DNA of 64,000 bases from Patescibacteria group bacterium (GCA_034678605.1 JAXDBQ010000039.1:1172-65171), one strand, 5' to 3'; counted from the first letter of the stretch, positions 48,178 through 60,434 are shown. Program-made: numbers and translations. Notes: a model not told the origin generated them from the letters alone.

Positions 48178-48277
48178 CCGTAGGGGCGATTCTATGTAAT
48201 CGCCCGTATTGTAACGCTCGCATCCGTTTATGTAATTGATAGAATTCAAATACGGGCGAAAACATAGTTTCGCCCCT
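48178..48277. repeat. R1 REP-like double-hairpin element, copy a
   Basis: gtaggggcgattctatgtaatcgccc ... gggcgaaaacatagtttcgcccctac. It is flanked by gaatttgtatttgcatttg and gaatgcaaaatga tails. Confidence 0.85.
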
Positions 48278-48365
48278 ACGAATGCAAAATGAAAAACTAT
48301 TCTTCCAATAACGCGCAAAAAGGCAAGTTGGCCTATCGCACTCCCAGCCGCTTTATATATCAAAA

Positions 48366-48965
48366 ATGTCTCAACGCTCAAAAAACAAGAATCCGGAAAG
48401 GCAAAACAAATTGGAGCAAATCGCCCAAGAAATAAGCGTTTGCCGAAAGTGCCGTTTAGCCATTACCCGGAACAAGACCGTGCCCGGAGAAGGGGGCGCC
48501 GAAGCGGAATTTTTTGTGATCGGCCAGGGTCCGGGCGCCAAAGAGGATAGAACCGGCCGGCCGTTTTGCGGCCGTTCGGGGCAATTGCTCACGGAATTGC
48601 TGGCGCTGGCCGGCATTGACCGCCAAAAGCAAACTTTTATCACTTCAATCGTGAAATGTTTGCCCACGCCGCCGTTGAATCGCAAGCCCAAATCGGATGA
48701 GATTGCCGCTTGTCATGATTTTTTGATGGAGCAGCTGGAAATTGTTGGCGCCAAGAAAATAATTTTGCTGGGAGACGCGGCGTTTAAGCAATTTTTTCCG
48801 CACGATAAATTTTCCGACTGGCGGGGAAAATGGCGCCAGAAAGCCGGCAAGCGATATTTTGTTTCCTACCATCCGGCCGCCGGCATCCGATTTGTGAAAT
48901 TCAAAAAGATCCTTGAATCCGATTTTTCGAATTTGCATTTAACCCGTAGGGGCGATTCTGTGTAA
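48366..48965 (+). CDS. Uracil-DNA glycosylase, family 4
   Basis: CRKCRL...VPGEGGAEAEFFVIGQGPGAKEDRTGRPFCGRSGQLL, YHPAA. The last 6 codons and the stop (TRRGDSV*) are supplied by repeat R1-b. Confidence 0.85.
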   Translation: MSQRSKNKNPERQNKLEQIAQEISVCRKCRLAITRNKTVPGEGGAEAEFFVIGQGPGAKEDRTGRPFCGRSGQLLTELLALAGIDRQKQTFITSIVKCLPTPPLNRKPKSDEIAACHDFLMEQLEIVGAKKIILLGDAAFKQFFPHDKFSDWRGKWRQKAGKRYFVSYHPAAGIRFVKFKKILESDFSNLHLTRRGDSV

Positions 48966-49029
48966 TCGCCCGCATTCGAATTTTATAATTTACGTAATTG
49001 CAAGGGCGAAAACATAGTTTCGCCCCTAC
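48946..49029. repeat. R1 REP-like element, copy b
   Basis: gtaggggcgattctgtgtaatcgcccgc ... gggcgaaaacatagtttcgcccctac. Confidence 0.85.
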
Positions 49030-49042
49030 AATACAAACACGA

Positions 49043-49399
49043 ATGGAACTCTCCGCCTTTGAAAAACTCGTTGCCGCGGTCGCCGAAGAGCTGCCGCAAA
49101 ACATCAAAGACGCGTTGGAAAACGTGGCCATTGTGATCGACGAAAAGCCGCGGCGCAACAATTTACTGGGGTTGTATGAAGGTATTCCCCAGAATCAGTG
49201 GGGGAAAAATGATGCCCTGCGCTTGCCCGACAAGATCACGATCTTCAAGGCCGCCATCGAGCAGGATGCCAAAACTCCGGAAAAAATAAAAGAACTGGTC
49301 AAGATCGTGGTTTGGCATGAGATCGCCCACCACTTCGGCTTCGATGAACCCCAAACCCGCCGCCTCGAGCGCAACTGGCGCCATGGCTTGACAAAATGA
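49043..49399 (+). CDS. Zinicin-like metallopeptidase family protein (DUF1025-like)
   Basis: VVWHEIAHHFGFDE (HExxH). Size and layout fit the family. Confidence 0.7.
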   Translation: MELSAFEKLVAAVAEELPQNIKDALENVAIVIDEKPRRNNLLGLYEGIPQNQWGKNDALRLPDKITIFKAAIEQDAKTPEKIKELVKIVVWHEIAHHFGFDEPQTRRLERNWRHGLTK

Positions 49400-49614
49400 G
49401 AATTTTAGTTTAATTATTTTAATTAAAGAGGTGGTTTTGAAAATGATGAGGATTTGCTTGCCAGTGGAAGATAGATCTTTAATAGCAAAATTCGGACAAG
49501 AATTTTTTATGGATGGCAAATTGACGCGTTTTGTTTTTTGTTCACGCATTACAAGATTGGCGAGAAAAAATTGGAAAAATAAAATTGAACGTCGGAGGGC
49601 GCGAGGATCTTGAT

Positions 49615-51246
49615 TTACTCGCGTATTTTTTTTACCATATAGGTTTTCTGCAATTTATAGCCGTTTTTGCGCCAGTATTGGCGCGCGCCCACGCCCGAGA
49701 TTGCGGCGATTTTTTTTGCGCCAAATTCGGTTTTAGCGACGTGCTCGGCTTCTTTAATTAATTTTTTTCCCAATCCGGTGTGCTGGGCCGCCGATAGGCG
49801 AGCCTCGCCCTTTGGGCGGGCCGATTCGCTTTTTAATTCAATTGGAATTTGCAATCCATAAGTATGTATTTCCCGAATTATCGCGTTTGTATTTTTTGGT
49901 AGGGGCGATTCTGTGTAATCGCCCGCATTTGATATCCTCAATCGCAAAAGCGAAAATAATTTTGTCTTGCTTTCATTCTCAAACGACAAAAATATCTCCA
50001 ATCCGCCCGATGCCTCATAATCGCGCCGCGTCAAGATTATTTTTTTGTTTGGATCATATCCGCCTTTGACCTCGCGGCAGCGGATGCAGGCGCAATGCCA
50101 ATTTTCTATTTCCATGTCGCGGCTAATTATCTGGCGCAAATTGGAAATTTGCTTGGTGCCGGCGGTGATGCGCGGGGAGGGGATATCGCGGATGATGCGC
50201 TCGATCCTGACATAAGGAGGGACGATTTTTTTGATCTCTTTGACGACTTCGACTAATTTTTCATCCGAATAGGGTTGGTATTTTCCGCTTTGGTAGATTT
50301 CATAGAGCGGCGCTTCTTTCAAAACCGCGCATGGATAGATTTTCAGAAGATCCGGGCAAAAATTTTGATCGGAAAACAGGATTTTAGCCATTTCAATGTC
50401 GCGTTGTGACGACGAACCAAAAAGATTGAGCATGATCTGGTAGGAAACCTTAAAGCCGGCGTTTTTTAGTAATTTCGTGGCGGCAATTGTGGCGTCAATT
50501 TTGTGGCCGCGGTTATTTGATTTCAAAACATCGTCATAGATGCTTTGAATTCCCAATTCCACGCGCGTCACGCCCAAATCGCGCAAACGCAAAATTTCTT
50601 TTTCATCGATGTGGTCCGGCCGGGTTTCGACCGAAATTCCCACAATGCGGCATTTGGCATTTTCATTTTTTTTCTGCTCGGCTTCCAAATTTAAATTCAC
50701 AGGGTTCCGATTCCTTTTGCAAAGATCGTTGCCGGCGGCAAAGCAGGCGGCGATGAATTTGGTTTGATAGGCCTTGGGATAAAAGCTCCAGGTGCCGCCG
50801 ATCACGCGCAGTTCCACTTTGTCGATGTTGTGGCCCTCGGCGGCCAGATTTTCCAGGCGTTTTTTGACTTGGACATAGGGGTCGAATTTCAAAAGTCGGG
50901 CGCGTTCGGCCGCCGGTTCCCCCGAAAGATAGCTTTTTGGGAATCCGGGCTCGCTGGGGCAATAAAGGCAATTTCCCGGGCAGGGATAGGGCTTGGTGAG
51001 CACTGAAACGTTCACGATGCCCGACAGCGACCGCACCGGCCGCACCCGCAGCAACTCTTTGAGGCGGCAAGTGTAGCAAGGTTTCACCTTGCTACACTTC
51101 AAAGCAGCCAGCAGGGAGATGTTGTCCGGATAGGGGATTTTCATTTCCTTGGCGGCTTGCCGCTTGAACGCCTCCAACTCGGCTTTGGTTTTCGGATTTG
51201 CCGCCACCAATTTTTCCGCAATAATTTGGTTGATTTGTTTTTCCAT
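49615..51246 (-). CDS. elp3: Elp3-like radical-SAM/GNAT tRNA-modification enzyme
   Basis: CPGNCLYCPSEPGFPKSY radical-SAM cluster region, VELGIQS, LRLR...IREIHTYG, and a C-terminal GNAT (QHTGLGKKLIKEAE). It contains an R1 half-element (49899-49926) and a G-element (49786-49822) in frame. Confidence 0.85.
   Translation of the reverse strand: MEKQINQIIAEKLVAANPKTKAELEAFKRQAAKEMKIPYPDNISLLAALKCSKVKPCYTCRLKELLRVRPVRSLSGIVNVSVLTKPYPCPGNCLYCPSEPGFPKSYLSGEPAAERARLLKFDPYVQVKKRLENLAAEGHNIDKVELRVIGGTWSFYPKAYQTKFIAACFAAGNDLCKRNRNPVNLNLEAEQKKNENAKCRIVGISVETRPDHIDEKEILRLRDLGVTRVELGIQSIYDDVLKSNNRGHKIDATIAATKLLKNAGFKVSYQIMLNLFGSSSQRDIEMAKILFSDQNFCPDLLKIYPCAVLKEAPLYEIYQSGKYQPYSDEKLVEVVKEIKKIVPPYVRIERIIRDIPSPRITAGTKQISNLRQIISRDMEIENWHCACIRCREVKGGYDPNKKIILTRRDYEASGGLEIFLSFENESKTKLFSLLRLRISNAGDYTESPLPKNTNAIIREIHTYGLQIPIELKSESARPKGEARLSAAQHTGLGKKLIKEAEHVAKTEFGAKKIAAISGVGARQYWRKNGYKLQKTYMVKKIRE
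49786..49822. repeat. G-family GC mini-palindrome inside the elp3 CDS
   Basis: ggccgcc gata ggcgagcctcgcc ctttg ggcgggcc. It encodes ..SARPKGEARLSAA.. on the minus strand. Confidence 0.75.
49899..49926. repeat. R1 half-element (single hairpin) inside the elp3 CDS
   Basis: gtaggggcgattctgtgtaatcgcccgc. It encodes ..AGDYTESPLP.. on the minus strand. Confidence 0.75.
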
Positions 51247-51282
51247 AACTTGAAATTATATGATTTTGGGATAAAGTCAAAA

Positions 51283-51378
51283 TATAAAATCGTAAAGCGA
51301 AAAGTGTAAAGTGAAAAACAAGATGCGGTATCCGTATTTTTGTTTTGCGCTTTGCGCTTTAAGTTTTTCGCTAAAAAC
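51283..51378. repeat. Word-hairpin family B in the divergent elp3/ybaB spacer
   Basis: aaatcgtaaagcgaaaagtgtaaagtgaaaaacaagatgcgg | tatccgtatttttgttttgcgctttgcgctttaagtttttcgc. Confidence 0.8.
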
Positions 51379-51636
51379 ATGTTCGAGAAACTTCAGCAGA
51401 TCAAAAAATTGCAGGAGATCCAAAGCGCGTTGAAAAACGTCAAAATCGATTCCGAAAGGAACGGCGTGAAAATTTATTTGAACGGCAAATTGGAAGTCGA
51501 GGATGTGGAATTGAATCCGGCGCTGTCGATTCCCGATCAGGAAAAGGCGGTGAAAGATTGCTTCAACGATGTGATGAAAAAGGCCCAAATGGAAGTGGCC
51601 AAGAAGATGCAAGGGATGGGAGGTTTTGGCTTGTAA
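51379..51636 (+). CDS. ybaB: YbaB/EbfC nucleoid-associated protein
   Basis: MFEKLQQIKKLQEIQSALKN ... DVMKKAQMEVAKKMQGM. Size and heptad pattern are typical. Confidence 0.8.
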   Translation: MFEKLQQIKKLQEIQSALKNVKIDSERNGVKIYLNGKLEVEDVELNPALSIPDQEKAVKDCFNDVMKKAQMEVAKKMQGMGGFGL

Positions 51637-51646
51637 GCCAAAACCG

Positions 51647-51825
51647 CAAATCCGAAGCACGAATATCGAAATTCGAAACAAATTCCGCGCCCGAGGCGCG
51701 TCCGCTTTCAGCGGAAAATTTTCAAAATTTAAATTTTCAAAACAAAATGCGCATTTGTTTTTAACATTTGAAAATTGAGATTTTGATATTGTTTCGGATT
51801 TCGACATTCGATATTTAAATATTTC
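51647..51825. repeat. Word-hairpin family A, copy A6, carrying a GC twin-mini-hairpin insert (G2)
   Basis: aaatccgaagcacgaatatcgaaattcgaaacaaatt [ccgcgcccgaggcgcg tccgctttcagcgga, 51685-51716] aaattttcaaaatttaaatttt ... gattttgatattgtttcggatttcgacattcgatattt. Confidence 0.8.
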
Positions 51826-51831
51826 TTTTTT

Positions 51832-52359
51832 ATGAACATAAAAAAGATTGTGGTGGGGTCGTTGCAAACCAATTGTTATTTGCTGCTTGACGGCGGGGAA
51901 TTGGTGATTGTCGATCCGGGGGATGAAGCGCAAAAGATAATCGGCGAAATTCAAAAAATCGGCGCCGCGGTTAAATTCATCGTCAATACGCACCGGCATT
52001 TTGATCATATCGGCGCCAACCGCGAATTGGAAAAGGAATTTGGCGTGAGGAAGGTTGATCTAAAAGACGGCGATGTTGTATCGATCGGGCAAGTACGATT
52101 GCGCGCAGTGGCAACTCCGGGCCACACGCCCGAAGGGATTTGTTTGTTCGGAAAAGATTTCGCGATTACGGGCGACACTTTGTTTGCCGATGGTTTTGGC
52201 CGCACTGATTTGGCCGGCGGATCAAGCGCGGATATGGCCGTGTCGCTGGCGAAATTGGATAATTTAATTCCCGAGGGTGGCATGGTTTATCCGGGCCACG
52301 GCGATGTTTTTGTTTACAAAAAAGGCATGGCATTGGAGTGGCTCGATTATTTGGAATAA
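51832..52359 (+). CDS. Metallo-beta-lactamase fold hydrolase (glyoxalase II-like)
   Basis: TNCYLL..., NTHRHFDHIG, TPGHTPEG, GDTLF..., YPGHG. Confidence 0.8.
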   Translation: MNIKKIVVGSLQTNCYLLLDGGELVIVDPGDEAQKIIGEIQKIGAAVKFIVNTHRHFDHIGANRELEKEFGVRKVDLKDGDVVSIGQVRLRAVATPGHTPEGICLFGKDFAITGDTLFADGFGRTDLAGGSSADMAVSLAKLDNLIPEGGMVYPGHGDVFVYKKGMALEWLDYLE

Positions 52360-52519
52360 ATTCTAAGCACCAAATCGCAAATCCCCTGCCTTTGGCGAGG
52401 CTCGCCTCCGGCGGCAAACAATATCAAAATTCAAAATTTTAAAATTCAAAACAAAAATCAAAAAGAATTTTGTTTTGACATTTGTATTTTGATATTTGAA
52501 ATTGTTTAGGGTTTAGATT
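52360..52519. repeat. Word-hairpin family C carrying a G-family insert
   Basis: The arms are ttctaagcaccaaatcgcaaatcc ... gtttagggtttagattttgggatttagg. The insert cctgcctttggcgaggctcgcctccggcggc is at 52385-52415. Confidence 0.75.
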
Positions 52520-53584
52520 TTGGGATTTAGGATTTCAATTGAAATTGTGGATTTGAGCAAATTGGAAACGATATTGGCGGGGGAGCCGGCCTACCGGGCC
52601 AAGCAGGCGCGGGAGGCGGTTTTTGGTTCATTGATCGATGATTGGAGCCAGGCGCGGGAATTGCCTGAAAATTTGCGCCAAAAATTGGCGGCAGAGTGTT
52701 CGCTTGATATCAACGCCGAAATTTTCCATTCAAAAGACGGCGCTTCGGCCAAAGCGCTGATAACTTTGGCCGACGGAGCAAAGATCGAAACCGTGCTGAT
52801 GCGGCATGGCAGCCGCCCGCGGGCGAGCCTCGCCTTTCAGGCGGGCCGGAATACGGTTTGCGTGTCGTCGCAGGTCGGCTGCCCGATGGGGTGCGCTTTT
52901 TGCGCCACCGGCAAAATGGGTTTCAAGCGGAATTTATCGGCCGATGAAATTGCGGAACAGGTTTTGCTTTTCGCGCGGATTTTGAAAAAAGAAGGCCGGC
53001 GGGTTGACAACGTGGTTTTTATGGGAATGGGCGAGCCGTTCTTGAATTATGCCAATGTGATGGCCGCGGTTAAAATTTTAAACGACCAGCGGGGGTTGAA
53101 TATCGGCGGCCGCCATATTTCGATCTCCACTTGCGGAGTTGTCGAGGGAATCGAAAAGCTTGTCGATGAACCGATCCAAGTTAATTTGGCAATTTCGCTG
53201 CACGCGCCCAACGATGCTTTGCGTTCGAAGCTGATGCCGATCAACGCCAAATATCCGTTGAAAAAACCGGTCGAAACCATCGCGCATTATATCGAAAGAA
53301 CCAACCGGAGGGTGATGCTTGAATACATAATGATCGACAAGGTCAATGATTCGGATGATTGCGCCCGGGAACTGGCCGACCTGGTGAAAACGCGATTATC
53401 GCCCAAATTGGCGTTCGTCAACCTGATCCGCTACAACCCGACCGGAGAATTTTTGGCGTCGCCGCCGGAACGGGTAAAAGCTTTCAAGGATATTTTGATG
53501 AAAGCCGGTGTGGAAACCACTGAACGTTATCGCTTCGGCCGCCAGATCAAGGCCGCTTGCGGCCAATTGGCGGCCAAAAGTTAA
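52520..53584 (+). CDS. rlmN: 23S rRNA/tRNA (adenine-C2)-methyltransferase RlmN (radical SAM)
   Basis: YRAKQ..., CVSSQVGCPMGCAFCATG, GMGEP, SLHAP. The start is uncertain (TTG 52520 lies in repeat C; GTG 52547 is plausible). It contains an in-frame G-element at 52813-52849. Confidence 0.9.
   Translation: MGFRISIEIVDLSKLETILAGEPAYRAKQAREAVFGSLIDDWSQARELPENLRQKLAAECSLDINAEIFHSKDGASAKALITLADGAKIETVLMRHGSRPRASLAFQAGRNTVCVSSQVGCPMGCAFCATGKMGFKRNLSADEIAEQVLLFARILKKEGRRVDNVVFMGMGEPFLNYANVMAAVKILNDQRGLNIGGRHISISTCGVVEGIEKLVDEPIQVNLAISLHAPNDALRSKLMPINAKYPLKKPVETIAHYIERTNRRVMLEYIMIDKVNDSDDCARELADLVKTRLSPKLAFVNLIRYNPTGEFLASPPERVKAFKDILMKAGVETTERYRFGRQIKAACGQLAAKS
52813..52849. repeat. G-family GC mini-palindrome inside the rlmN CDS
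   Basis: ccgcccgc g ggcgagcctcgcc tttcag gcgggccgg. It encodes ..SRPRASLAFQAGR.. between the conserved LMRH and NTVCVSSQVGC blocks. Confidence 0.8.
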
Positions 53585-53673
53585 GCGAAAAGCGCAAAGA
53601 GCAAAGCGTAAAACAAGAATTCGAAATGCGTATTTTGCTTTAAGTTTTTCGCTTTTCGCTTTACACTTCCATT
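53585..53673. repeat. Word-hairpin family B, full hairpin
   Basis: gcgaaaagcgcaaagagcaaagcgtaaaacaagaattcg | aaatgcgtattttgctttaagtttttcgcttttcgctttacac. Confidence 0.8.
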
Positions 53674-53895
53674 ATGTTTGTTAAAGTTAAAGTGGCGCCT
53701 TGCGCCAAAGAGGAGCAAGTGGTCCAAGTCGCCCAAGACGCGCTCAAAATTTCGGTGCGTGAAAAGCCGGAGAACGGCCAAGCCAACGCGCGCGTCCGCG
53801 AGCTGGTGGCGTTCTATTTTGCGGTGCCGGCGGGCAAGGTGCATTTGGTAAAAGGGGCGCACGAATCGGCCAAAATATTCGAAATCCTCGATTGA
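53674..53895 (+). CDS. DUF167 (YggU/UPF0235) family protein
   Basis: VKVAPCAKEEQV ... KISVREKPENGQANARVRELVAFYFAVPAGKVHLVKGAHESAK. Confidence 0.75.
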   Translation: MFVKVKVAPCAKEEQVVQVAQDALKISVREKPENGQANARVRELVAFYFAVPAGKVHLVKGAHESAKIFEILD

Positions 53896-53978
53896 ATGCT
53901 TGATTTATGATTTAAGATTTATGATTTTTAAATTCGAGTTTGAATTATTCTTAAATCCTAAATCCTAAATCATTATTC
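53896..53978. repeat. Word-hairpin family C variant
   Basis: gaatgcttgatttatgatttaagatttatgatttttaaatt ... gaattattcttaaatcctaaatcctaaatcattattc. Confidence 0.7.
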
Positions 53979-53990
53979 TTGAATTTTATT

Positions 53991-54557
53991 ATGGATGATA
54001 TTTTATTAGTCGATGAAGATAATAATCCGACAGGGGCGGGGGAGAAAATGGATGTTCATCGGCGCGGAATTTTGCATCGCGCGTTTTCGATTTTGGTTTA
54101 TAATTCCAAAAAAGAAATGTTGTTGCAACGGCGCGCCATAATCAAGTATCATTGCCCGGGGCAGTGGAGCAACGCTTGCTGTTCGCATCCGGCGCCCGGC
54201 GCTCATTTATTGGTCGCGGCCCGAAAGCGGTTGAAAGAAGAAATGGGAATCGATATTCCGGTTAAAGAAACCGGCGTTGAGTTTATCTATAAAGTGAAAG
54301 TGGGCGACTTGACCGAATATGAATATGATTATTTGCTTTATGGTCAATTCGACGGCCAGCCTAAAATCAATCCCCAAGAGGCCGATGCGTGGAAATGGAT
54401 GGCTTTTGGCGATTTGCGGGCCGATATGAAAGAAAATCCCGAGGCCTATACGCCGTGGTTTCGCTTGATCGTGAGCCAAGGCGATAGCGACGCCGAGCAA
54501 ATTCCGGTGCCGCGGCTGGAAAAATACGAGATTAAAAAATTGGCAACCTACAAATAA
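53991..54557 (+). CDS. idi: Isopentenyl-diphosphate delta-isomerase, type 1 (Nudix)
   Basis: LVDEDNNPTG...HRRGILHRAFSILVYNSKKEMLLQRRAIIKYHCPGQWSNACCSHP ... E..Y.Y (Cys and Glu catalytic context). Confidence 0.85.
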   Translation: MDDILLVDEDNNPTGAGEKMDVHRRGILHRAFSILVYNSKKEMLLQRRAIIKYHCPGQWSNACCSHPAPGAHLLVAARKRLKEEMGIDIPVKETGVEFIYKVKVGDLTEYEYDYLLYGQFDGQPKINPQEADAWKWMAFGDLRADMKENPEAYTPWFRLIVSQGDSDAEQIPVPRLEKYEIKKLATYK

Positions 54558-54611
54558 AGCGTAAAGTTTAAAGCGCAAAGCGCAAAGTGAAAATACAAAA
54601 GCGCAGGCAAA

Positions 54612-55328
54612 ATGGAAAAAAATATTGCTGATGAATTATTGGAACAAACGCGTCAAAATTACGATTCGTTTGCCGAATCGTTTTCGCGAACGCGAGATTA
54701 TGTTTGGCCGGAATTTAAAAAATTGATCGGCGGCTATGCCAAATCCGGGGATAAGGTGTTGGATATCGGTTGCGGCAACGGCCGCTTATATCCGCTTTTT
54801 CAAGAAATCGGCGCGGATTATGTTGGCGCGGACAACTCAAAAAATTTGATTGGAATCGCGCAAAATAAATTTTCAACCGGCAAGTTCATTGTCGGCGACG
54901 CGTTGGGCTTGCCGTTCGCGGATGGATCGTTTGACGCGGTTGTATCTTTGGCCGTGGTTCATCATATTCCTTCAAGGGAGTACCGCCAAAAATTTTTCCA
55001 AGAAGCGGCGCGGGTTTTGAAGCCGGGCGGCTATTTTATCGCCGCGGCTTGGGATTTGTGGTTGGCGACAATGTTTGGAAATCGGCAATGGAAGCGCGTG
55101 AAAGGATTTTTAAAAACCCAGGTAAGAATCGCGCTTGGTTTGGAAAAATTGGATTTTGGCGATTTTTTCATTCCCTGGCAAAATCAATATCCGCGCTACC
55201 ATCATGCTTTTGGGCTGAATGAATTGAAAAATTTGGCAAAATTTGCCGGTTTTGAAATCAAGCAAGCTGGCATTGCCAAGGTTGGCCGCCGCGAACAAAA
55301 CCTTTACATCATCGCCAGGAAAGCTTAA
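54612..55328 (+). CDS. Class I SAM-dependent methyltransferase
   Basis: VLDIGCGNGRL, DAVVSLAVVHHI, LKPGG. Confidence 0.8.
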   Translation: MEKNIADELLEQTRQNYDSFAESFSRTRDYVWPEFKKLIGGYAKSGDKVLDIGCGNGRLYPLFQEIGADYVGADNSKNLIGIAQNKFSTGKFIVGDALGLPFADGSFDAVVSLAVVHHIPSREYRQKFFQEAARVLKPGGYFIAAAWDLWLATMFGNRQWKRVKGFLKTQVRIALGLEKLDFGDFFIPWQNQYPRYHHAFGLNELKNLAKFAGFEIKQAGIAKVGRREQNLYIIARKA

Positions 55329-55357
55329 AATGGGTGGAATAATTGTAAATTTTAATT

Positions 55358-56398
55358 ATGAAAATTGCCATTACCGGAACCTCGGGGTCGGGCAAGGATA
55401 CGCTTGCCGAATATTTGGTCCAAAAAAAAGGATTCGAAAAAATTTCTTTGTCTGGTTTGATTCGTGATGAAGCCAAGAATAGGCGGATCGAATCGACTCG
55501 CGAAAATTTGCGAAAACTGGGAAATGAAATGCGTCAAACGCAAGGCAATGATATTCTTGCCAAAATTGCGCTGGAAAAAATTGAGTCGGATAAAAATTAT
55601 ATTATTACCAGCGTGAGGCATCCGCAAGAAATTAAAATCTTATTCGATTCGGGCAGCTTTGTTTTGTTATCGGTTGACGCGCCGGTTGAAGTAAGGTTTG
55701 AGAGGGTATCGCGAAGAGGCGACGCGAAAGAAAAAAATATTAAAAATTTACAAGATTTTCAAAAAAGCGAAGCGCAAGAAATGGATTCGGATGATTTTTG
55801 CGGCCAAAAAGTCCGGCAATGCATGAATATGGCAAAGTTTACGATTTTAAACAACGGCGATAAAAATGATTTTTTTAAAAAATTTGATGATTTGTTTGAT
55901 GAATTAAAAAAAGAATCAAAATATGTTCGGCCGTCATGGGATCGTTATTTTATGGATTTGGTGCAGTCGATTGGTCAAAGGGGAACTTGCAATCGCGGCC
56001 GGGCCGGATGTTTGATCGCGCGCGACAAAAGAATTATCGCGACCGGCTATGCGGGCGCGCCGGAACGGCTTGACCATTGCGACGAGATAGGCCATTTATA
56101 TAAAGATACGATCCATGAAGATGGATCGGTTACCCGACATTGCATTCGTACGGTTCATGCCGAAGCGAATGCAGTCGCTCAGGCGGCAAAATATGGCATT
56201 GCGGTTGACGGCGCCACAATTTATTGCAAAATAGAGCCTTGTCTTGATTGTGCCAAGCTCTTGATTAGCGCGGGCATAAAAAAGGTAGTTTGCGAGACTC
56301 GTTATCATGCGGCCAAGGAAGCGCGCCAAATGCTTGCTGACGCGCGAGTTGAGATTGTTGCTTTAAATGATCAAGTGGAATCATACGGAAATAAATAG
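55358..56398 (+). CDS. Fusion of a P-loop nucleotide/nucleoside kinase-like domain with dCMP deaminase (ComEB/CDA zinc-deaminase fold)
   Basis: The N-terminus carries IAITGTSGSGKDTLAEYL (Walker A). The C-terminus carries RPSWDRYFMDL, TVHAEANA, and PCLDCAKLL (HAE ... PCxxC). Confidence 0.8.
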   Translation: MKIAITGTSGSGKDTLAEYLVQKKGFEKISLSGLIRDEAKNRRIESTRENLRKLGNEMRQTQGNDILAKIALEKIESDKNYIITSVRHPQEIKILFDSGSFVLLSVDAPVEVRFERVSRRGDAKEKNIKNLQDFQKSEAQEMDSDDFCGQKVRQCMNMAKFTILNNGDKNDFFKKFDDLFDELKKESKYVRPSWDRYFMDLVQSIGQRGTCNRGRAGCLIARDKRIIATGYAGAPERLDHCDEIGHLYKDTIHEDGSVTRHCIRTVHAEANAVAQAAKYGIAVDGATIYCKIEPCLDCAKLLISAGIKKVVCETRYHAAKEARQMLADARVEIVALNDQVESYGNK

Positions 56399-56418
56399 TC
56401 AGATATATTGCTTAAAAT

Positions 56419-56445
56419 AAAAATCCGCGGCTCGGCGGATTTTTC
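56419..56445 (+). terminator. Intrinsic terminator after the deaminase gene
   Basis: atccgc ggctcg gcggat followed by tttt. Confidence 0.6.
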
Positions 56446-56449
56446 GAAG

Positions 56450-56522
56450 GTGCGCCCGACAGGAATCGAACCTGTAGTCGCCGGCTTCGGAGGCCGGCAT
56501 TTTATCCATTAAACTACGGGCG
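56450..56522 (-). tRNA. tRNA-Arg (anticodon CCG)
   Basis: The reverse complement folds with acceptor gcgcccg/cgggcgc, anticodon stem ccggc/gccgg with loop ctCCGaa, and T arm acagg-ttcgatt-cctgt. There is no encoded CCA. Confidence 0.85.
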
Positions 56523-56585
56523 CGCGGCAAAGCAAGTATATCACAACACTTTATTTTTTCAATTTTTGGAATTTTAATTTCAAAT

Positions 56586-56614
56586 TTGACAAATGGAATT
56601 CAAAAAGCTAAAAA
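56586..56614 (+). promoter_or_regulatory. Sigma-70-like promoter (ttgaca - 17 nt - taaaaa)
   Basis: ttgaca at 56586-56591, a 17-nt spacer, and taaaaa at 56609-56614, immediately upstream of the structured RNA candidate. Confidence 0.45.
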
Positions 56615-56618
56615 GGAA

Positions 56619-56780
56619 GCGAGGGGATGAGGGTTTTTACCCAATACAGGCAGAAAGCCGGTCAGCGAAGGAGGTTGAGTTGGGCCATGCAGTCTCTGCC
56701 AGATTGCACTATGTAGCTTGGCTGATCTCGCGATTGGCTGTTCCCCTCGCCTAAAAGGCACCGATGCATCGGTGTTTTTT
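56619..56780 (+). ncRNA. Unclassified structured RNA candidate, about 160 nt (SRP-RNA-like or 6S-like; identity unresolved)
   Basis: No ORF. A 9-bp closing stem gcgagggga (56619-27) / tcccctcgc (56742-50). Internal hairpins gggt-tttt-accc, tcagc-gaaggag-gttga and ggcaga...tctgcc. A strong terminator caccgatgcatcggtg + tttttt lies at 56759-56780. Confidence 0.4.
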
Positions 56781-57105
56781 AGTTAGCACGCGCATTGAGC
56801 CCCATGGTTTGTCTTTGGACGATTTCAAAAAAGGGCGAAGCCCCATTGTGCCGGAAATTAAAAGCACGGGCTTGAAATTGGAATAACCAAAGCGATTTGT
56901 CGATTTATAAAACAAAAATTAAACTTTGACCGTCGCGAAAAATCCTCACAGCGGTTTTTTTTGATCTTGTTTGAAAAACTAAACAAATAGAAAAAATTTG
57001 ACATTTTGTGGCGGGGGGCGGTAATTTCACTTTATCCGGCGGTTTTGGTAGAATTAATTATTGGTATTTTTACTTTGCGCTTTGCGCTTTAAGTTTTTCA
57101 CTTTT

Positions 57106-57660
57106 ATGCAATACAAAATCGCGGTGTCGGGCGCGGCCGAGATCGGCCGTTGTTGCGACAACATAGTTTTGCTTTCAAAGGAGGTGGGCAAGGAAATCGC
57201 CCGCAACCATTGCGTTTTGGTTTCGGGCGCCACCACGGGCGTGCCCTATTTTTCGGCCCAGGGGTGCAAGCAGGCCGGGGGGTTCAACGTGGGTTTTTCG
57301 CCGGCCGGATCCGAGATCGAGCATTTGCGGCGCTACCGCTTGCCGCTGGATCCGTTTGACGTGATGATCTACACCGGATCGGATTATTCCGGCCGGGACA
57401 TTATTATGACCAAGTCGGCCGACGCCATCATTATTGTTTGCGGCCGCATGGGCACATTGCACGAATTTACCACGGCCGTGGAATGCAAAAAGATAATCGG
57501 CGTGCTGGAGGGTTCGGGCGGCACGGCCGACAAGATCCGCGATTTGGTGAAAGGAACCTATCGCGGAATAAAAAAAATCGAATATGATAACGATCCCATA
57601 ATGCTGGTGCGAAAAATCATTGAACGAGTAACCCGGGAAAAGAAAAAAGCCAAATTTTAA
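57106..57660 (+). CDS. LOG/TIGR00725-family Rossmann-fold nucleotide-binding protein
   Basis: KIAVSGAA ... VLVSGATTGVPYFSAQGCKQAGGFNVGFSP ... ADAIIIVCGRMGTLHEF. Confidence 0.65.
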   Translation: MQYKIAVSGAAEIGRCCDNIVLLSKEVGKEIARNHCVLVSGATTGVPYFSAQGCKQAGGFNVGFSPAGSEIEHLRRYRLPLDPFDVMIYTGSDYSGRDIIMTKSADAIIIVCGRMGTLHEFTTAVECKKIIGVLEGSGGTADKIRDLVKGTYRGIKKIEYDNDPIMLVRKIIERVTREKKKAKF

Positions 57661-57699
57661 AAGAAATTTGTTTTTAATTTTCGTTTGTGTTTTTGTATT

Positions 57700-57779
57700 T
57701 GTAGGGGCGAAACTATGTTTTCGCCCGCATTCGCATTTTGAAATCGCGGGTTCGGGGCGATTACATAGAATCGCCCCTA
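57700..57779. repeat. R1 REP-like element, copy d (inverted orientation)
   Basis: gtaggggcgaaactatgttttcgccc ... ggggcgattacatagaatcgcccctac. It supplies the last codons and stop (GTRRGDSM*) of the PAP2 gene. Confidence 0.85.
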
Positions 57780-58399
57780 CGGGTGCCAATTGCGATCGCG
57801 CCGTTCAAAACTGCGGCGCCGGCCAAAAATCCGGCAATGACGTCGGCAGGGTAGTGCGCGCCCAGATAGACGCGCGAAAATCCCACCAACAAAACGAATA
57901 TCGGCGCGATAATGTTTATCGTCCACAGCAGTTTTTTGTTTTTGACCGATTTGTTGGCCAAAAACAACAAGACGCCATAAAAAACCAGTGAGTTCATCGA
58001 ATGGCCCGATGGGAAACTATACCATGACGCGTCTTCCAGCGCCGGCATATCGGGAAATTCCGGTCGCGGCCGCTGGACAGTGTATTTCACGAGATTGTTG
58101 ATGATCACGCTGGTTAAAAGCGTGGCGGCGAAAAACAAAGCGGTTTGGCGCCGTTTTTTTATCCAAAAAGCCAGAATCATGATCGCGGTCAACAGGCCGG
58201 TGAACATCGTGGAACTGACCGTTGAAATCGCGGTTAGAATTTGCGTCAAAAACGGACTTCTTAAATCGTAGATCACTTTCGTCCATTGGGCGTCAAAATC
58301 CATTGTTTTATTGCCGGCCACCGCAAAAACGATCGTGGCGAATGCCACGACTAAAATTACGACCGTCGCCCCAAATTTGACTTTATTGGTTATTGTCAT
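57761..58399 (-). CDS. PAP2-family lipid phosphatase (undecaprenyl-diphosphatase / phosphatidate phosphatase type)
   Basis: KYTVQRPRP, SFPSGHS, SRVYLGAHYPADV (the three PAP2 motifs). Confidence 0.8.
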   Translation of the reverse strand: MTITNKVKFGATVVILVVAFATIVFAVAGNKTMDFDAQWTKVIYDLRSPFLTQILTAISTVSSTMFTGLLTAIMILAFWIKKRRQTALFFAATLLTSVIINNLVKYTVQRPRPEFPDMPALEDASWYSFPSGHSMNSLVFYGVLLFLANKSVKNKKLLWTINIIAPIFVLLVGFSRVYLGAHYPADVIAGFLAGAAVLNGAIAIGTRRGDSM

Positions 58400-58420
58400 A
58401 AATTGATTATAATCTAATAT

Positions 58421-58519
58421 GAATTATGAAACGCTTTGAATTTGTATTTTTGGGGTCGTTCCCCCGTGTAATCGCGGGGGTGCGACCCCGATAATAGTAT
58501 TAGAAGAGTTTCGTAATTC
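58421..58519. repeat. R2 MITE-like element, copy 4 (inverted orientation) with 12-bp TIRs
   Basis: TIRs are gaattatgaaac / gtttcgtaattc. The core is ggggtcgttcccccgtgtaatcgcgggggtgcgacccc. Confidence 0.8.
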
Positions 58520-58560
58520 GTGATAATTTAATATAATACCGCAATTTAACCTTAAACAAA

Positions 58561-59199
58561 ATGCACACAGATATTTTTATTTTCGGCGACAGCATTGGTT
58601 TTGGTAAATATGATTCAAGGGGCGGTTGGACTTATCGCTTGAACGAATTTTTCGAAACGGATTATCTTGCCGGAGGGGGGGGCGAAGCGTACGTCTATAA
58701 TCTCTCGATATCGGGCAATCGAACTGAAGACATATTGGAACGTTTTGAATCGGAAATGAGGCCGCGTTTTGCCGAGAAAAAAGATACCGTTATTGTTTTC
58801 GCGATTGGGCTTAATGATGCGGCGTTCGTGCACAGCAAGAAAGACAATTGGACGAACTTTGACGATTTTAAAAACAATCTTGAGAATCTGCTCATCAAAG
58901 CCAAAAATTTTTATGACAAAATTATTTTTCTCGGTTTAACCGCGACCGATCAAGCGATCGTGGATCCGATGCCATGGGATTTGGACAAATCCTATCTTGA
59001 TGCCGACGTCAAAAAATATGACGCGGCGTTGCGCGACATCTGCCAAAAATCAGGAGTTGGCTATATTTTGCTTTATGACAAATTCATTGCTGGCGGGTTG
59101 AAAAACTTGTTGCATGACGGCGCGCATCCCAACGCGGCCGGCCACCAGCTGATCTTCGAAACCCTCCGCGATCATCTGTTGGCCAACAAGATCATATAA
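58561..59199 (+). CDS. SGNH/GDSL-family hydrolase
   Basis: IFIFGDSIGFG (block I), GLND (block III), DGAHPN (block V). Confidence 0.8.
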   Translation: MHTDIFIFGDSIGFGKYDSRGGWTYRLNEFFETDYLAGGGGEAYVYNLSISGNRTEDILERFESEMRPRFAEKKDTVIVFAIGLNDAAFVHSKKDNWTNFDDFKNNLENLLIKAKNFYDKIIFLGLTATDQAIVDPMPWDLDKSYLDADVKKYDAALRDICQKSGVGYILLYDKFIAGGLKNLLHDGAHPNAAGHQLIFETLRDHLLANKII

Positions 59200-59270
59200 A
59201 TCAATTTAATCGATAACGGACACTCTCACATTCTTGAGAATGTGAGAATATCAGTAAATTTTTTAATAAA

Positions 59271-59702
59271 ATGAAAAAAGTTGGGTTTGGGGAGGTTGAA
59301 GAAATAATAAATGACTTTGTTTGCAAAAACAAAGAATTTTTGGCAGAGGTTGGAGTTTTGGTTGGGGTGAGCCGGGGCGGGCTGGTACCGGCCGCGCTTT
59401 TGGCGGCCAAAATTGATAAGCCGCTGGTGGCGGTTTATATCGATAAAAGCGACGAGATATTCTTTGACCGGGGCGAATGGATAGCAGGCAAGAATGTTTT
59501 GGCGGTTGACGATATTATCCGCTCGGGAAAAACCTTGCGGTTGGTGAATGATCGCTTGAAAAATTTTTGCGCGCCCCAAAATGTTTCGTTTTTCACACTT
59601 TTTAGGGTGTTGCCGCTAAACAATCCCAAATTTAACATTCCGTCGTTTTCCCGCAAGATCGATGAGGATGTCGTTTTCCTGTGGGACCATGACCGGAAGT
59701 AA
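59271..59702 (+). CDS. Phosphoribosyltransferase (purine PRTase-like)
   Basis: VLAVDDIIRSGKTL PRPP-binding loop. Confidence 0.7.
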   Translation: MKKVGFGEVEEIINDFVCKNKEFLAEVGVLVGVSRGGLVPAALLAAKIDKPLVAVYIDKSDEIFFDRGEWIAGKNVLAVDDIIRSGKTLRLVNDRLKNFCAPQNVSFFTLFRVLPLNNPKFNIPSFSRKIDEDVVFLWDHDRK

Positions 59703-59705
59703 AAA

Positions 59706-60320
59706 ATGGTGATGGAATATAATTCGAAAATCCATCATCGGAGGTCGATTCGCGCCCAAGGATATGATTATTCGCGGGATAGCGCGTATTTTGTGACGAT
59801 ATGCGCGCAGGATATGAAGTGCGTGTTTGGGAATATCGAAAGAGGGGAGATGAGATTGAATGGGGCGGGAGAGATGGTTGATTTTTGGTGGCGGGAATTA
59901 CCCAATAAGTTCCAAAATATCCGGCTTGACGAATTTACGGTGATGCCGAACCATTTTCACGGGATTTTGGTTGTAGGGGCGATTCTATGTAATCGCCCTG
60001 AGCCCGTAATTTTGAATTCGGATTTTGATGCGGGCGAAAACATAGTTTCGCCCCTACGGAAAATACAAAATGCAAATGCAAAAATTCCAAATACATACGC
60101 CGGTTTAGGACAATATGTTTCTTGGTTTAAACGAATGACGACCAATGAATATATCCGCAATGTTAAAATCGGCAAATTCCCGCCGTTCGAAAAATCGGTT
60201 TGGCAGAGGAATTATTGGGAGCATATTATTCGCGACGATGATGAGTTGGACCGCATCCGCGGATATATTGTCGATAATCCGTCAAATTGGGAAATCGATG
60301 AATTTTATTCGCAGAAATAA
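59706..60320 (+). CDS. REP-associated tyrosine transposase-like protein (RAYT; IS200/IS605 Y1 HUH superfamily, COG1943)
   Basis: YFVTICAQD, the HUH motif in MPNHFHGILVV, and the C-terminal catalytic-Tyr region RNYWEHIIRDDDELDRIRGYIVDNP. It contains a complete R1 element in frame. Confidence 0.8.
   Translation: MVMEYNSKIHHRRSIRAQGYDYSRDSAYFVTICAQDMKCVFGNIERGEMRLNGAGEMVDFWWRELPNKFQNIRLDEFTVMPNHFHGILVVGAILCNRPEPVILNSDFDAGENIVSPLRKIQNANAKIPNTYAGLGQYVSWFKRMTTNEYIRNVKIGKFPPFEKSVWQRNYWEHIIRDDDELDRIRGYIVDNPSNWEIDEFYSQK
59982..60056. repeat. R1 REP-like element, copy e, inside the RAYT-like CDS
   Basis: gtaggggcgattctatgtaatcgccc ... gggcgaaaacatagtttcgcccctac, followed by the tail ggaaaatacaaaatgcaaatgc. 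It translates to VGAILCNRPEPVILNSDFDAGENIVSPLRKIQNANA. Confidence 0.85.
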
Positions 60321-60434
60321 TGCGGGCAACCACAAGGGTTGCCCCTACGATGTAAATGCTAATTCTGGATTATTTCGGGGCGTGTGTTATGTTAAAAACA
60401 CAATAATAGGAATAATCAAAAACGTAAATTTGTA

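What the first reader, a model, noticed from the sequence alone, without database searches (positions are those of the whole stretch)
48178..60320. RAYT-like HUH transposase with five cognate REP-like double hairpins nearby, one complete copy inside its own reading frame
ORF 59706-60320 has the HUH (MPNHFHGIL) and C-terminal Tyr (RNYWEHIIRDD) regions of REP-associated tyrosine transposases. Five R1 elements lie within 12 kb (48178, 48946, 49899 half-copy, 57700, 59982). The R1 structure is gtaggggcgatt-ctatgt-aatcgccc ... gggcgaaa-acatag-tttcgcccctac. Copy e lies inside the transposase gene between the HUH and Tyr motifs. It is translated in frame as VGAILCNRPEPVILNSDFDAGENIVSPLRKIQNANA. Two other copies have replaced the 3' ends of host genes and donate the stop codon. 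The UDG ends ...TRRGDSV* and the PAP2 phosphatase ends ...GTRRGDSM*; both tails are encoded by cgtaggggcgattct(g/a)tgtaa. RAYTs are normally flanked by REPs rather than interrupted by them. An in-frame REP could be self-targeting, a regulatory device, or a sign the gene is being domesticated or decaying.
Basis: partly seen in the sequence, partly recalled or inferred. Interest (0 to 1): 0.7.

Follow-up and report, generated by a model that had tools for sequence, protein, structure and literature searches.

The report
RAYT transposase with in-frame REP doublet
This is a REP-associated tyrosine transposase gene that carries a copy of its own palindromic repeat in frame inside a surface loop; the sequence is really there, but this arrangement was published in 2018 as the hallmark of this transposase subclass, so the locus is an ordinary new member.

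Summary
ORF 59706-60320 is a Y1/HUH transposase of the RAYT (TnpA_REP) type. Four complete R1 doublets and one single R1 arm lie at 48180-60057, against zero expected by chance. One doublet (59973-60057) is translated in frame between the HUH and Tyr motifs.

The in-frame repeat is not an odd self-insertion or a sign of decay. It is shared by the whole clade:
- In 74 homologous loci with an intact reading frame, 52 carry GTAG-tagged hairpins on both strands in the same loop.
- Hairpin density there is 12.2 per kb, against 0.4 per kb in the rest of the gene.
- The hairpin sequences differ between genomes, and the tag is read in different frames (VGA or xRG; APT, RPY or xPL). What is conserved is therefore the DNA, not the peptide.
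- Internal REPs often match the REPs next to the same gene.

Quentin et al. 2018 (BMC Genomics 19:475) described exactly this as the "unique feature" of TnpA_REP subclass 2.4, and the window ORF fits that subclass. REPs that donate stop codons or sit inside other genes were described by Di Nocera et al. 2013.

Verdict: real, well explained, a new member of a known kind, low interest.

The parts
59706..60320 (+). RAYT / TnpA_REP gene (204 aa), subclass 2.4 type, the only copy in the window
   Evidence: ORF. NCBIfam REP_Tyr_transpos scores 47.8 bits on the C-terminal half only. The family profile hits PDB 4ER8 at E=1.5e-5. The AF2 model's best Foldseek hit is 4er8_A. No second copy was found in the window by tblastn.
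59952..59960 (+). HUH motif (H83-F84-H85 within MPNHFHG)
   Evidence: M80, P81, N82 and H83 are invariant and H85 is nearly invariant in 37 sequences.
59973..60057 (+). R1 copy e: REP doublet with the GTAG heads facing outward, translated in frame as VGAILCNRPEPVILNSDFDAGENIVSPL. Left arm 59973-59998, 33-nt spacer, right arm 60032-60057.
   Evidence: It folds at -24.1 kcal/mol, z -7.1. It falls within the model's low-confidence span between strand 83-90 and helix 134-154: the 10-residue blocks 91-130 have mean pLDDT 37-51 and residues 98-122 and 125-130 are below 50.
60201..60215 (+). WQRNY motif (the W/Q/R residues that contact the GTAG guide in E. coli TnpA_REP)
   Evidence: It aligns to 4ER8 residues 90-122. 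The role of these residues is taken from Quentin 2018 and Messing 2012 as quoted.
60264..60281 (+). Catalytic Tyr motif YIVDNP (Y187)
   Evidence: Y187 and N191 invariant, P192 nearly invariant. The subclass 2.4 signature is YIxNNP.
60321..60348 (-). Single GTAG-tagged REP of a different type (GTAGGGGCAACCCTTGTGGTTGCCCGCA) immediately after the RAYT stop codon
   Evidence: It folds at -9.6 kcal/mol.
48180..48279 (+). R1 copy a: intergenic REP doublet (48-nt spacer) between the DUF763 and UDG genes
48946..49029 (+). R1 copy b: REP doublet (32-nt spacer). Its left arm supplies the last 6 codons (RRGDSV) and the TAA stop of the UDG gene 48366-48965.
49899..49924 (+). R1 copy c: single REP arm lying in frame inside the Elp3-like radical-SAM gene 49615-51246(-), read as GDYTESPL
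57701..57780 (-). R1 copy d: REP doublet (28-nt spacer). Its left arm supplies the RRGDSM tail and the TAA stop of the PAP2 gene 57761-58399(-).

Best explanation
The locus is a REPtron. It consists of a vertically inherited RAYT/TnpA_REP gene of subclass 2.4 (Bertels Group 4) and a small local population of its cognate GTAG-tagged REP doublets (REPINs, the 'R1' element).

**How the enzyme works (inferred from E. coli TnpA_REP and IS608 TnpA).** The HUH histidines hold a divalent metal. Tyr187 cleaves and rejoins single-stranded DNA next to a REP hairpin. The hairpin is recognised through its stem-loop and its 5' GTAG guide.

**Why the in-gene copy is tolerated.** The in-frame doublet sits in the loop between the HUH strand (beta3) and helix alphaC. 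This is a peripheral, probably disordered loop that tolerates almost any peptide. It is the only place in the gene where a REP can persist. Only the reading frames that avoid the TAG stop are seen.

**Status of the in-gene copy.** Carrying a REP there is the norm for this subclass. The in-gene copy stays similar to the genome's other REPs, so it behaves as a member of the REP population rather than as a dead scar.

**Why REPs touch other genes.** The copies at the ends of the UDG and PAP2 genes and inside the Elp3-like gene reflect local spread around the transposase gene into positions where a few extra residues are harmless.

**Shown here:** identity, anatomy, clade-wide conservation and loop location.
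**Inferred:** the catalytic mechanism, the mobility of the repeats, and why the loop copy is kept.
For: **Family and fold.**
- HUH, WQ and Y motifs are present.
- NCBIfam REP_Tyr_transpos is the only family hit.
- The family profile hits 4ER8 TnpA_REP at E=1.5e-5.
- The AF2 model (pLDDT 76.9) has 4er8_A as top Foldseek hit, followed by IS608 and ISDra2 TnpA.

**Loop location.** In the model, the 10-residue blocks covering residues 91-130 have mean pLDDT 37-51, and residues 98-122 and 125-130 are below 50. This span lies between strand 83-90 and helix 134-154.

**Clade-wide DNA-level feature.**
- 52 of 74 intact homologous loci have GTAG-hairpins on both strands in this loop, and at least 60 have one on at least one strand.
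- Density is 12.16 per kb in the loop, 0.42 per kb in the rest of the ORF and 0.36 per kb in the flanks.
- The tag is read as VGA or xRG and as APT, RPY or xPL, so its reading frame varies while the DNA stays the same.
- Stems differ between loci through compensatory changes.

**Similarity to the genome's own REPs.** Internal arms are identical or 1-2 mismatches from REPs flanking the same gene in L055, L060, L077, L100, L101, L104, L115 and L119. In the window they are identical to copies a and d.

**Vertical inheritance.** The neighbours are the same (Pribosyltran, then RAYT, then DUF4342) in L003, L004 and L005, at 54-60% protein identity and with different internal REPs.

**Prior description.** Quentin et al. 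2018 state that subclass 2.4 has REPs inserted within tnpAREP, in frame, between HuH and Y, in the beta3/alphaC loop.

**Clustering.** All R1 copies lie within 12 kb of the gene.
Against: - Curated HMM cut-offs are not reached: NCBIfam 47.8 against 80 bits, Pfam Y1_Tnp 19 against 23 bits. Only the C-terminal half aligns, probably because the insertion splits the domain.
- No REP lies upstream of the gene, because the preceding gene ends 3 nt before the start codon. The classic picture of REPs on both sides is therefore only half met.
- The spacers of the four doublets differ in length (28-48 nt) and mostly in sequence. That fits poorly with copying of whole REPINs as units.
- The copy number seen is tiny (4.5 elements in 64 kb), and the genome-wide count could not be obtained.
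- No activity, expression or mobility data exist for this subclass. The mechanism is extrapolated from E. coli TnpA_REP, which is only about 15% identical.
Confidence: 0.8

Rival explanations
1. Recent self-insertion and decay. A mobile R1 element happened to land in its own transposase gene in this genome, and the gene is being inactivated or domesticated.
For: The internal arms are identical to those of copies a and d, which could suggest a recent event. A related gene in a Kuenenbacteria MAG (L042) carries the same R1-type doublet and is frameshifted into three tblastn segments, so decay does occur in some lineages.
Against: - The same position carries REP doublets in 52 of 74 homologues from diverse metagenomes, each with its own hairpin sequence.
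- Relatives with the gene at the same chromosomal position and 54-60% protein identity already have a REP there.
- All catalytic and invariant residues are intact.
- The doublet is 85 nt, not a multiple of 3, so a simple one-step insertion of the element would break the frame.
- The feature is published as a subclass hallmark.
Confidence: 0.04
2. The loop peptide is what selection conserves. VGA...SPL/APT would be a functional protein motif, and the palindromic DNA and the extragenic copies would be by-products, for example fragments of the gene copied elsewhere.
For: V90 and G91 are nearly invariant and P116 is invariant in the 37-sequence alignment.
Against: - The same DNA tag is read in different frames in different homologues: VGA or C/R-R-G on the left, APT, RPY or xPL on the right.
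- The residues between the tags are hypervariable in sequence and length, while the DNA stems keep pairing through compensatory changes.
- Identical arms occur in non-coding DNA and in unrelated genes in other frames, for example RRGDSV and GDYTESPL.
- The region is predicted to be disordered.
- L117 lacks the segment altogether yet keeps an intact gene.
Confidence: 0.03
3. The in-gene REP doublet is selected for a cis function rather than merely tolerated. One version is a protected master copy that keeps transposase and substrate linked. Another is an autoregulatory hairpin in the mRNA or ssDNA that the RAYT binds to limit its own expression.
For: - The feature persists at one position across deep divergence (36-60% identity) with intact hairpins in most lineages.
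- Internal arms are kept near-identical to the flanking REPs.
- Some genes carry two tandem doublets (L062, L067, L123).
- Di Nocera et al. discuss REP hairpins down-regulating RAYT expression as a possibility.
Against: - 10 of 74 loci lack a detectable internal REP, and L117 has a short clean loop with REP arrays outside the gene, so the internal copy is dispensable.
- REPs also persist at a fixed loop site in an unrelated housekeeping gene (Elp3-like) in many relatives. This shows that long persistence with sequence turnover does not need a transposase-specific function.
- There are no expression or binding data.
Confidence: 0.13

Closest known systems
TnpA_REP subclass 2.4 of the TnpA_Y1 superfamily (Quentin, Siguier, Chandler and Fichant 2018, BMC Genomics 19:475), equal to RAYT Group 4 of Bertels et al. 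2017
   Same: - HuH motif NH[IFV]H (here NHFH) and a WQ motif.
- Length about 194 aa (here 204).
- A variable-length insertion between beta3 and alphaC.
- Long GTAG REPs with three G-C pairs at the foot of the stem.
- REPs inserted in frame within the tnpAREP gene between HuH and Y, which the authors describe as 'a unique feature' and 'predominant' in the subclass.

Sources: compared.
   Different: - The Y motif is YIVDNP rather than YIxNNP.
- The host appears to be an uncultured, probably Patescibacteria-like lineage (inferred from the best hits, which are Kuenenbacteria and Falkowbacteria MAGs). The paper reports mostly Cyanobacteria and Bacteroidetes.
- There is no REP upstream of the gene.
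- The paper does not report, in the text I could read, the reading-frame analysis, the enrichment figures, or the conserved chromosomal position with REP turnover. These are increments, not a new kind.
E. coli TnpA_REP / REPtron (Ton-Hoang et al. 2012; Messing et al. 2012, PDB 4ER8)
   Same: - Y1 HUH fold. 4er8_A is the top structural hit (E 1.1e-5, TM 0.47/0.57), and the family profile hits it at E 1.5e-5.
- GTAG-tagged REP hairpin substrate.
- Conserved W/Q/R residues of the guide-binding region.
   Different: - Only about 15% sequence identity.
- E. coli has about 25 residues between HUH and W, against about 80 here.
- E. coli REPs flank the gene and are not inside it.
- E. coli REP stems are long and bulged.
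REPIN-RAYT systems of Pseudomonas (Bertels and Rainey 2011; RAYT Groups 2/3)
   Same: - Two REPs in inverted orientation that can fold into one long hairpin.
- A transposase gene inherited vertically at a conserved chromosomal position; only one copy was found in the 64-kb window, and copy number in the whole genome was not checked.
- REPs clustered next to the gene.
   Different: - Pseudomonas REPINs number in the hundreds with conserved spacers. Here a handful of copies is seen, with divergent spacers.
- No in-gene REP is described for those groups.
Intragenic GTAG/CGTC REPs and Rickettsia RPEs (Di Nocera et al. 2013; Ogata et al., as cited there)
   Same: - REPs inserted in frame in protein-coding genes.
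- REP termini providing stop codons to flanking ORFs.
- Different REPs at about the same site in orthologous genes (recB in Xanthomonas).

These match the UDG and PAP2 tails and the Elp3-like site here.
   Different: The text and supplements of that paper that I could search do not list a transposase gene among the ORFs interrupted by REPs.

Membership tests
RAYT / TnpA_REP (Y1 HUH transposase associated with REPs) | HUH motif and a single catalytic Tyr in a Y-x-x-x-N-P type motif, plus the conserved W | tested here: met
   MPNHFHG, WQRNY and YIVDNP are present. These residues are invariant or nearly invariant in 37 homologues.
RAYT / TnpA_REP (Y1 HUH transposase associated with REPs) | Score above the curated family HMM thresholds | tested here: not met
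   NCBIfam NF047646 scores 47.8 bits against a cut-off of 80. Pfam PF01797 scores 19 against 23. Only residues 133-192 align, probably because the loop insertion splits the domain.
RAYT / TnpA_REP (Y1 HUH transposase associated with REPs) | Y1 transposase fold like PDB 4ER8 | tested here: met
   The profile hits 4er8_A at E 1.5e-5. The AF2 model has pLDDT 76.9, and Foldseek's top hit is 4er8_A at E 1.1e-5 and probability 1.00.
RAYT / TnpA_REP (Y1 HUH transposase associated with REPs) | GT[AG]G-tagged REP hairpins flanking the gene on both sides in inverted orientation (REPtron) | tested here: inconclusive
   There is a REP directly after the stop codon (60321-60348, -) and a doublet inside the gene. 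None lies upstream, because the preceding gene ends 3 nt before the start codon.
RAYT / TnpA_REP (Y1 HUH transposase associated with REPs) | Site-specific binding and cleavage of single-stranded REP DNA | not testable with these tools
   This needs biochemistry. Only ssDNA folding of the arms was computed.
RAYT / TnpA_REP (Y1 HUH transposase associated with REPs) | Single copy per genome, vertically inherited | tested here: inconclusive
   There is one copy in the 64-kb window, and the gene has the same neighbours in L003, L004 and L005. The whole genome was not available.
TnpA_REP subclass 2.4 (Quentin et al. 2018) | Motif signatures NH[IFV]H, WQ and YIxNNP; mean length about 194 aa | tested here: met
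   NHFH and WQ match and the length is 204 aa. The Y motif is YIVDNP, one deviation (D for N).
TnpA_REP subclass 2.4 (Quentin et al. 2018) | Insertion of variable length and sequence between beta3 and alphaC | tested here: met
   The distance from the PNH of the HUH motif to the W of WQRNY ranges from 52 to 133 residues in 74 homologues, with hypervariable sequence. In the model the 10-residue blocks covering residues 91-130 have mean pLDDT 37-51, with residues 98-122 and 125-130 below 50, between strand 83-90 and helix 134-154.
TnpA_REP subclass 2.4 (Quentin et al. 2018) | REP sequences inserted within the tnpAREP gene without disrupting the frame | tested here: met
   The doublet is at 59973-60057 in the window. 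Of 74 homologues, 52 have both arms in the loop.
TnpA_REP subclass 2.4 (Quentin et al. 2018) | Canonical long REPs with three G-C pairs at the foot of the stem, or 'double-foot' GTAG...CTAC palindromes | tested here: met
   The R1 arms are GTAG-GGGCGATT/AATCGCCC. Double-foot forms are seen in homologues L102, L118, L119, L125 and L092.
TnpA_REP subclass 2.4 (Quentin et al. 2018) | 8-aa insertion at the end of alphaB | not tested
   No alignment against other subclasses was made.
REPIN (Bertels and Rainey 2011) | Two REPs in inverted orientation with a short spacer, able to form one long hairpin | tested here: met
   There are four doublets of 80-100 nt. Their ssDNA folds are -22.5 to -30 kcal/mol with z -6.5 to -8.7.
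REPIN (Bertels and Rainey 2011) | Replicated as a unit, giving a conserved spacer and a large population in the genome | tested here: inconclusive
   Spacers are 28, 32, 33 and 48 nt long and largely dissimilar; only d and e resemble each other. Population size is unknown, because the window's genome did not appear in the genome-contig scan.

The most novel reading that the evidence does not exclude
REPs lodged at fixed sites inside genes may be overwritten in place by whatever REP type the genome currently uses. The two sites seen here are the RAYT beta3-alphaC loop and a loop of the Elp3-like gene.

- Orthologous sites in related genomes carry different REP sequences.
- Each of these matches its own genome's RAYT-internal or RAYT-flanking REPs.
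- In L003 the difference between the Elp3-site REP and the RAYT-internal arm is a single compensatory pair in the stem.

This would imply a RAYT-catalysed replacement or conversion reaction (cut at the GTAG, swap the hairpin, rejoin) rather than only insertion and decay. The in-gene copy could then serve as the reference copy that keeps enzyme and substrate specificity matched.
Probability: 0.2. Interest if true: 0.55.

Novelty: new member of a known kind. Interest (0 to 1): 0.22.

Why it matters
For annotation it matters modestly. Members of this subclass fall below the curated Pfam and NCBIfam thresholds because the repeat-encoded loop splits the domain. The 'conserved' VGA...SPL/APT residues in their alignments are a DNA repeat read through, not a protein motif.

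For biology it is one more example of repeat and transposase persisting together. It comes from an uncultured lineage that is probably Patescibacteria-like, with small REP families. It does not open a new question beyond those already raised in 2018: why subclass 2.4 keeps its substrate inside its own gene, and whether that copy is functional.

Tried and rejected
- **Single-sequence search of the PDB.** phmmer found nothing at E<=0.01. The family profile was needed to reach 4ER8.
- **Genome-wide R1 count.**
- **R1 matches in other phyla as hidden RAYT genes.** I expected most cross-phylum R1 matches to lie inside RAYT genes. Only 3 of the 43 stretches have a match inside or next to a RAYT homologue (L008 and L042 inside, L025 next to); L039 has a partial homologue about 2.6 kb away. 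The idea that the exact 26-mer is conserved only as coding sequence was dropped.
- **Literature.**
  - A full-text search for 'GTAGGGGC' gave only irrelevant primer hits.
  - Nunvar 2010, Bertels and Rainey 2011 ('Curiosities') and Bertels 2017 do not mention in-gene REPs.
  - The text and supplements of Di Nocera 2013 that are held list no transposase among REP-interrupted ORFs.
  - The prior description was found in Quentin et al. 2018.
- **dN/dS.** A comparison between the window and L003/L005 was considered and not run, because at 54-60% protein identity synonymous sites are saturated.
- **UDG C-terminus.** A comparison with orthologues was not done, to save the last protein search. Only the Pfam domain boundary was used.

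Full report

Yes. ORF 59706-60320 (+, 204 aa) carries MPNHFHG, then VGAILCNRPEPVILNSDFDAGENIVSPLRKIQNANA, then WQRNYWEHIIRDD and YIVDNP.

The 26-nt left arm GTAGGGGCGATTCTATGTAATCGCCC occurs five times. The right arm GGGCGAAAACATAGTTTCGCCCCTAC occurs four times. Shuffles give 0.00 expected matches. The elements are:
- four doublets, at 48180-48279, 48946-49029, 57701-57780 (minus strand) and 59973-60057;
- one single arm at 49899-49924.

Each arm is a GTAG-tagged 8-bp stem with a 6-nt loop. As ssDNA it folds at -8.2 to -8.3 kcal/mol (z about -5 to -5.7). The whole doublet can also form one long hairpin, at -22.5 to -30 kcal/mol (z -6.5 to -8.7). The two arms differ by ATT/AAT against AAA/TTT inside the stem, so each keeps its own pairing.

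A tenth GCCCCTAC at 60341-60348 belongs to a different REP, placed directly after the stop codon. All R1 copies lie in 12 kb of the 64-kb window. Under uniform placement this has P about 0.004.

**2. Neighbouring genes.**

- *UDG gene (48366-48965).* It ends ...TRRGDSV*. The last six codons and the TAA stop lie inside copy b. Its Pfam domain match ends at residue 173.
- *PAP2 gene (57761-58399, minus strand).* It ends ...GTRRGDSM* inside copy d. The L005 orthologue diverges exactly at the REP boundary and has a longer native tail, so replacement of the 3' end is supported there.
- *The 'half-copy' at 49899.* It is in frame inside the Elp3-like radical-SAM gene (49615-51246, minus strand), read as GDYTESPL.

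REP ends donating stop codons and REPs inside ORFs are described in Di Nocera et al. 2013.

**3. What is the protein?**

- Pfam Y1_Tnp (19 bits) and NCBIfam REP_Tyr_transpos (47.8 bits) are the only family hits. Both are below their curated cut-offs and both align only to the C-terminal half.
- A search of the large protein collection found more than 7,900 relatives. Several are named 'REP element-mobilizing transposase RayT' by JGI.
- A profile of 37 of them hits E. coli TnpA_REP (PDB 4ER8) at E 1.5e-5. The HUH strand aligns to 4ER8 residues 45-65 and the WQ...Y region to residues 90-122.
- An AlphaFold2 model (pLDDT 76.9, pTM 0.73) has 4er8_A as its best Foldseek match, followed by IS608 and ISDra2 TnpA.
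- In the model, the 10-residue blocks covering residues 91-130 have mean pLDDT 37-51, with residues 98-122 and 125-130 below 50. This span lies between the HUH strand (83-90) and the next long helix (134-154). The REP-encoded residues (90-117) fall within it.

**4. The key result: the in-frame REP is shared by the clade.**

In the 37-sequence alignment, V90 and G91 are nearly invariant right after the HUH motif. They are followed by a stretch that is hypervariable in sequence and length and ends in ...SPL...APT or similar.

DNA of relatives that have the gene at the same chromosomal position shows why:
- L005 has GTAGGGGCGGGCCTCGTGTCCGCCC ... and its exact reverse complement, read as VGA...APT.
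- L003 has GTAGGGGCGACCTTTATGGTCGCCC read in another frame (C-R-G-D-L-Y-G-R-P), paired with a second, different arm.

I then fetched 80 more homologous loci from metagenomes. Of 74 loci with an intact HUH-to-WQRNY frame:
- 56 have a GTAG-tagged hairpin on the plus strand of this loop, 60 on the minus strand and 52 on both;
- hairpin density is 12.16 per kb in the loop, 0.42 per kb in the rest of the ORF and 0.36 per kb in the flanks.

The tag GTAGGGGC is nearly constant, while the stems differ from locus to locus with compensatory changes. The left tag is read as VGA or xRG; the third frame would give a TAG stop. The right tag is read in all three frames, as APT, RPY or xPL. The conserved object is therefore DNA, not peptide.

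In many loci the internal arms are identical or 1-2 mismatches from REPs just outside the same gene: L055, L060, L077, L100, L101, L104, L115 and L119. One homologue (L117) has a short clean loop and REP arrays on both flanks, so the internal copy is dispensable.

**5. Inheritance.**

The gene lies between a phosphoribosyltransferase gene and a DUF4342 gene in the window, in L001/L002 (identical protein), in L003/L004 (60% identity) and in L005 (54%). Only one copy is present in the window. This is the housekeeping-like pattern reported for RAYTs (Bertels et al. 2017), not that of a recently mobile insertion sequence.

**6. Prior knowledge.**

Quentin, Siguier, Chandler and Fichant (2018) classify TnpA_Y1 proteins. 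For subclass 2.4 (Bertels Group 4) they give:
- HuH motif NH[IFV]H, a WQ motif and Y motif YIxNNP;
- about 194 aa;
- a variable insertion between beta3 and alphaC;
- long and 'double-foot' REPs.

[quoted passage not shown]' [quoted passage not shown]

The window ORF fits these signatures: NHFH, WQ, YIVDNP and 204 aa. The central point of the finding is therefore already published.

What my analysis adds is incremental:
- the reading-frame argument;
- the enrichment numbers in 74 loci;
- conserved gene position with different internal REPs in close relatives;
- a host lineage that is probably Patescibacteria-like (inferred from Kuenenbacteria and Falkowbacteria best hits).

**7. Mechanism.**

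*Shown:* the fold, the catalytic motifs, the GTAG-hairpin repeats, the loop location and the similarity of the in-gene copy to neighbouring copies.

*Inferred from E. coli TnpA_REP and IS608 (as summarised):*
- the enzyme binds the REP hairpin in single-stranded DNA;
- it reads the GTAG guide through the W/Q/R region;
- it cleaves and rejoins through Tyr187, with a metal held by the HUH histidines.

*Most likely reason for the in-gene copy:* REPs spread locally around the gene, and the beta3-alphaC loop is the one place in the ORF where an in-frame hairpin pair is harmless. A selected cis role, as a master copy or an autoregulatory hairpin, cannot be excluded. It is not needed, because the same persistence is seen in an unrelated gene (section 8).

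**8. Side observations that bear on this.**

*The Elp3-like site.* The REP site in the Elp3-like gene is occupied in many close relatives by REP-encoded peptides of different types: GENMVSPLR, GRAQGPPL, GQTQGLPL, NDYSPLR and others. More distant homologues have a short native loop there.

In L003 the REP at that site differs from the RAYT-internal right arm by one compensatory pair in the stem. This points to in-place turnover, or to repeated use of one site. Di Nocera et al. noted a similar case in recB.

*R1 arms in other phyla.* Exact R1-type arms occur in 43 stretches from species-representative genomes of many phyla, mostly outside RAYT genes. The two variable stem positions are almost always complementary.

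*A sister assembly.* GCA_964551425.1 is 99.7% identical to the window except for 48991-51242, which is 88-92% identical. One junction lies inside REPIN b, and the REP type at the Elp3-like site is different. This may be recombination, or a chimeric metagenome assembly.

**9. Verdict.**

- Novelty: a new member of a known kind.
- Interest is low (about 0.2).
- The most novel reading still open is REP replacement in place at fixed sites inside genes. I put it at about 0.2 probability, of moderate interest if true.

Noticed in passing
window 49899-49924, inside the Elp3-like gene 49615-51246(-); also L003 at 4089 and proteins P0121-P0180: A single REP lies in frame in a loop of the Elp3-like tRNA-modification gene. 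Many of the 60 closest homologues (58-86% identical) carry REP-encoded peptides of different types at the same site (GENMVSPLR, GRAQGPPL, GQTQGLPL, NDYSPLR). The rest have a short native loop. Each genome's REP at this site resembles its own RAYT-associated REPs.
   Followed up: partly
window 48991-51242 against L129 (GCA_964551425.1): A sister assembly is about 99.7% identical to the window on both sides but only 88-92% identical across the Zincin_1 and Elp3-like genes. One junction lies inside REPIN b, whose spacer is about 125 nt there against 32 nt here. The REP type at the Elp3-like site also differs. This could be recombination at a REP or a chimeric metagenome assembly.
   Followed up: partly
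L006-L048 (genome-contig scan): Exact R1-type arms (GTAGGGGCGAWWCTRTGTWWTCGCCC) occur in 43 stretches from species-representative genomes of many phyla: Planctomycetota, Omnitrophota, Patescibacteria, Thermodesulfobacteriota, Aminicenantes, Bacteroidota and a Lonepinella isolate. They are mostly not in RAYT genes. The two variable stem positions are almost always complementary (AAT/ATT, AAA/TTT, ATT/AAT).
   Followed up: partly
window 60432-60475 and 61344-61387: There is a second palindromic repeat family, GAGGTCAGACCTCGGCG-nnnn-CGCCGAGGACTGACCTC. One copy has a GTAG head and the other a GACG head. Both are followed by AATGC and A-rich runs.
   Followed up: partly
L117 9520-10881: This RAYT homologue has a short loop with no internal REP, but arrays of alternating REPs on both flanks: ten just upstream of the gene and seven just downstream (17 in total). 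It shows that the in-gene copy is dispensable.
   Followed up: no
L042 3883-4620 (Candidatus Kuenenbacteria MAG): This RAYT homologue is about 60% identical and carries the same R1-type internal doublet, but it is split into three tblastn segments. The frameshifts may be real decay or an assembly error.
   Followed up: no
window, many intergenic regions (e.g. 16732-16785, 30895-30996, 53578-53679, 54558-54608): Intergenic spacers are full of short periodic A-rich repeats such as AAAGCGY, with copies offset by 14 nt, and of AAATTYSRA-type runs. These form families of 5-18 loose copies across the window.
   Followed up: no
window 49795-49830 (Elp3-like gene, minus strand): There is an 11-residue insertion (ARPKGEARLSA) relative to most close homologues. 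A few others have it too (P0160, P0165, P0175). The DNA contains small GC-rich inverted repeats but no GTAG tag.
   Followed up: no
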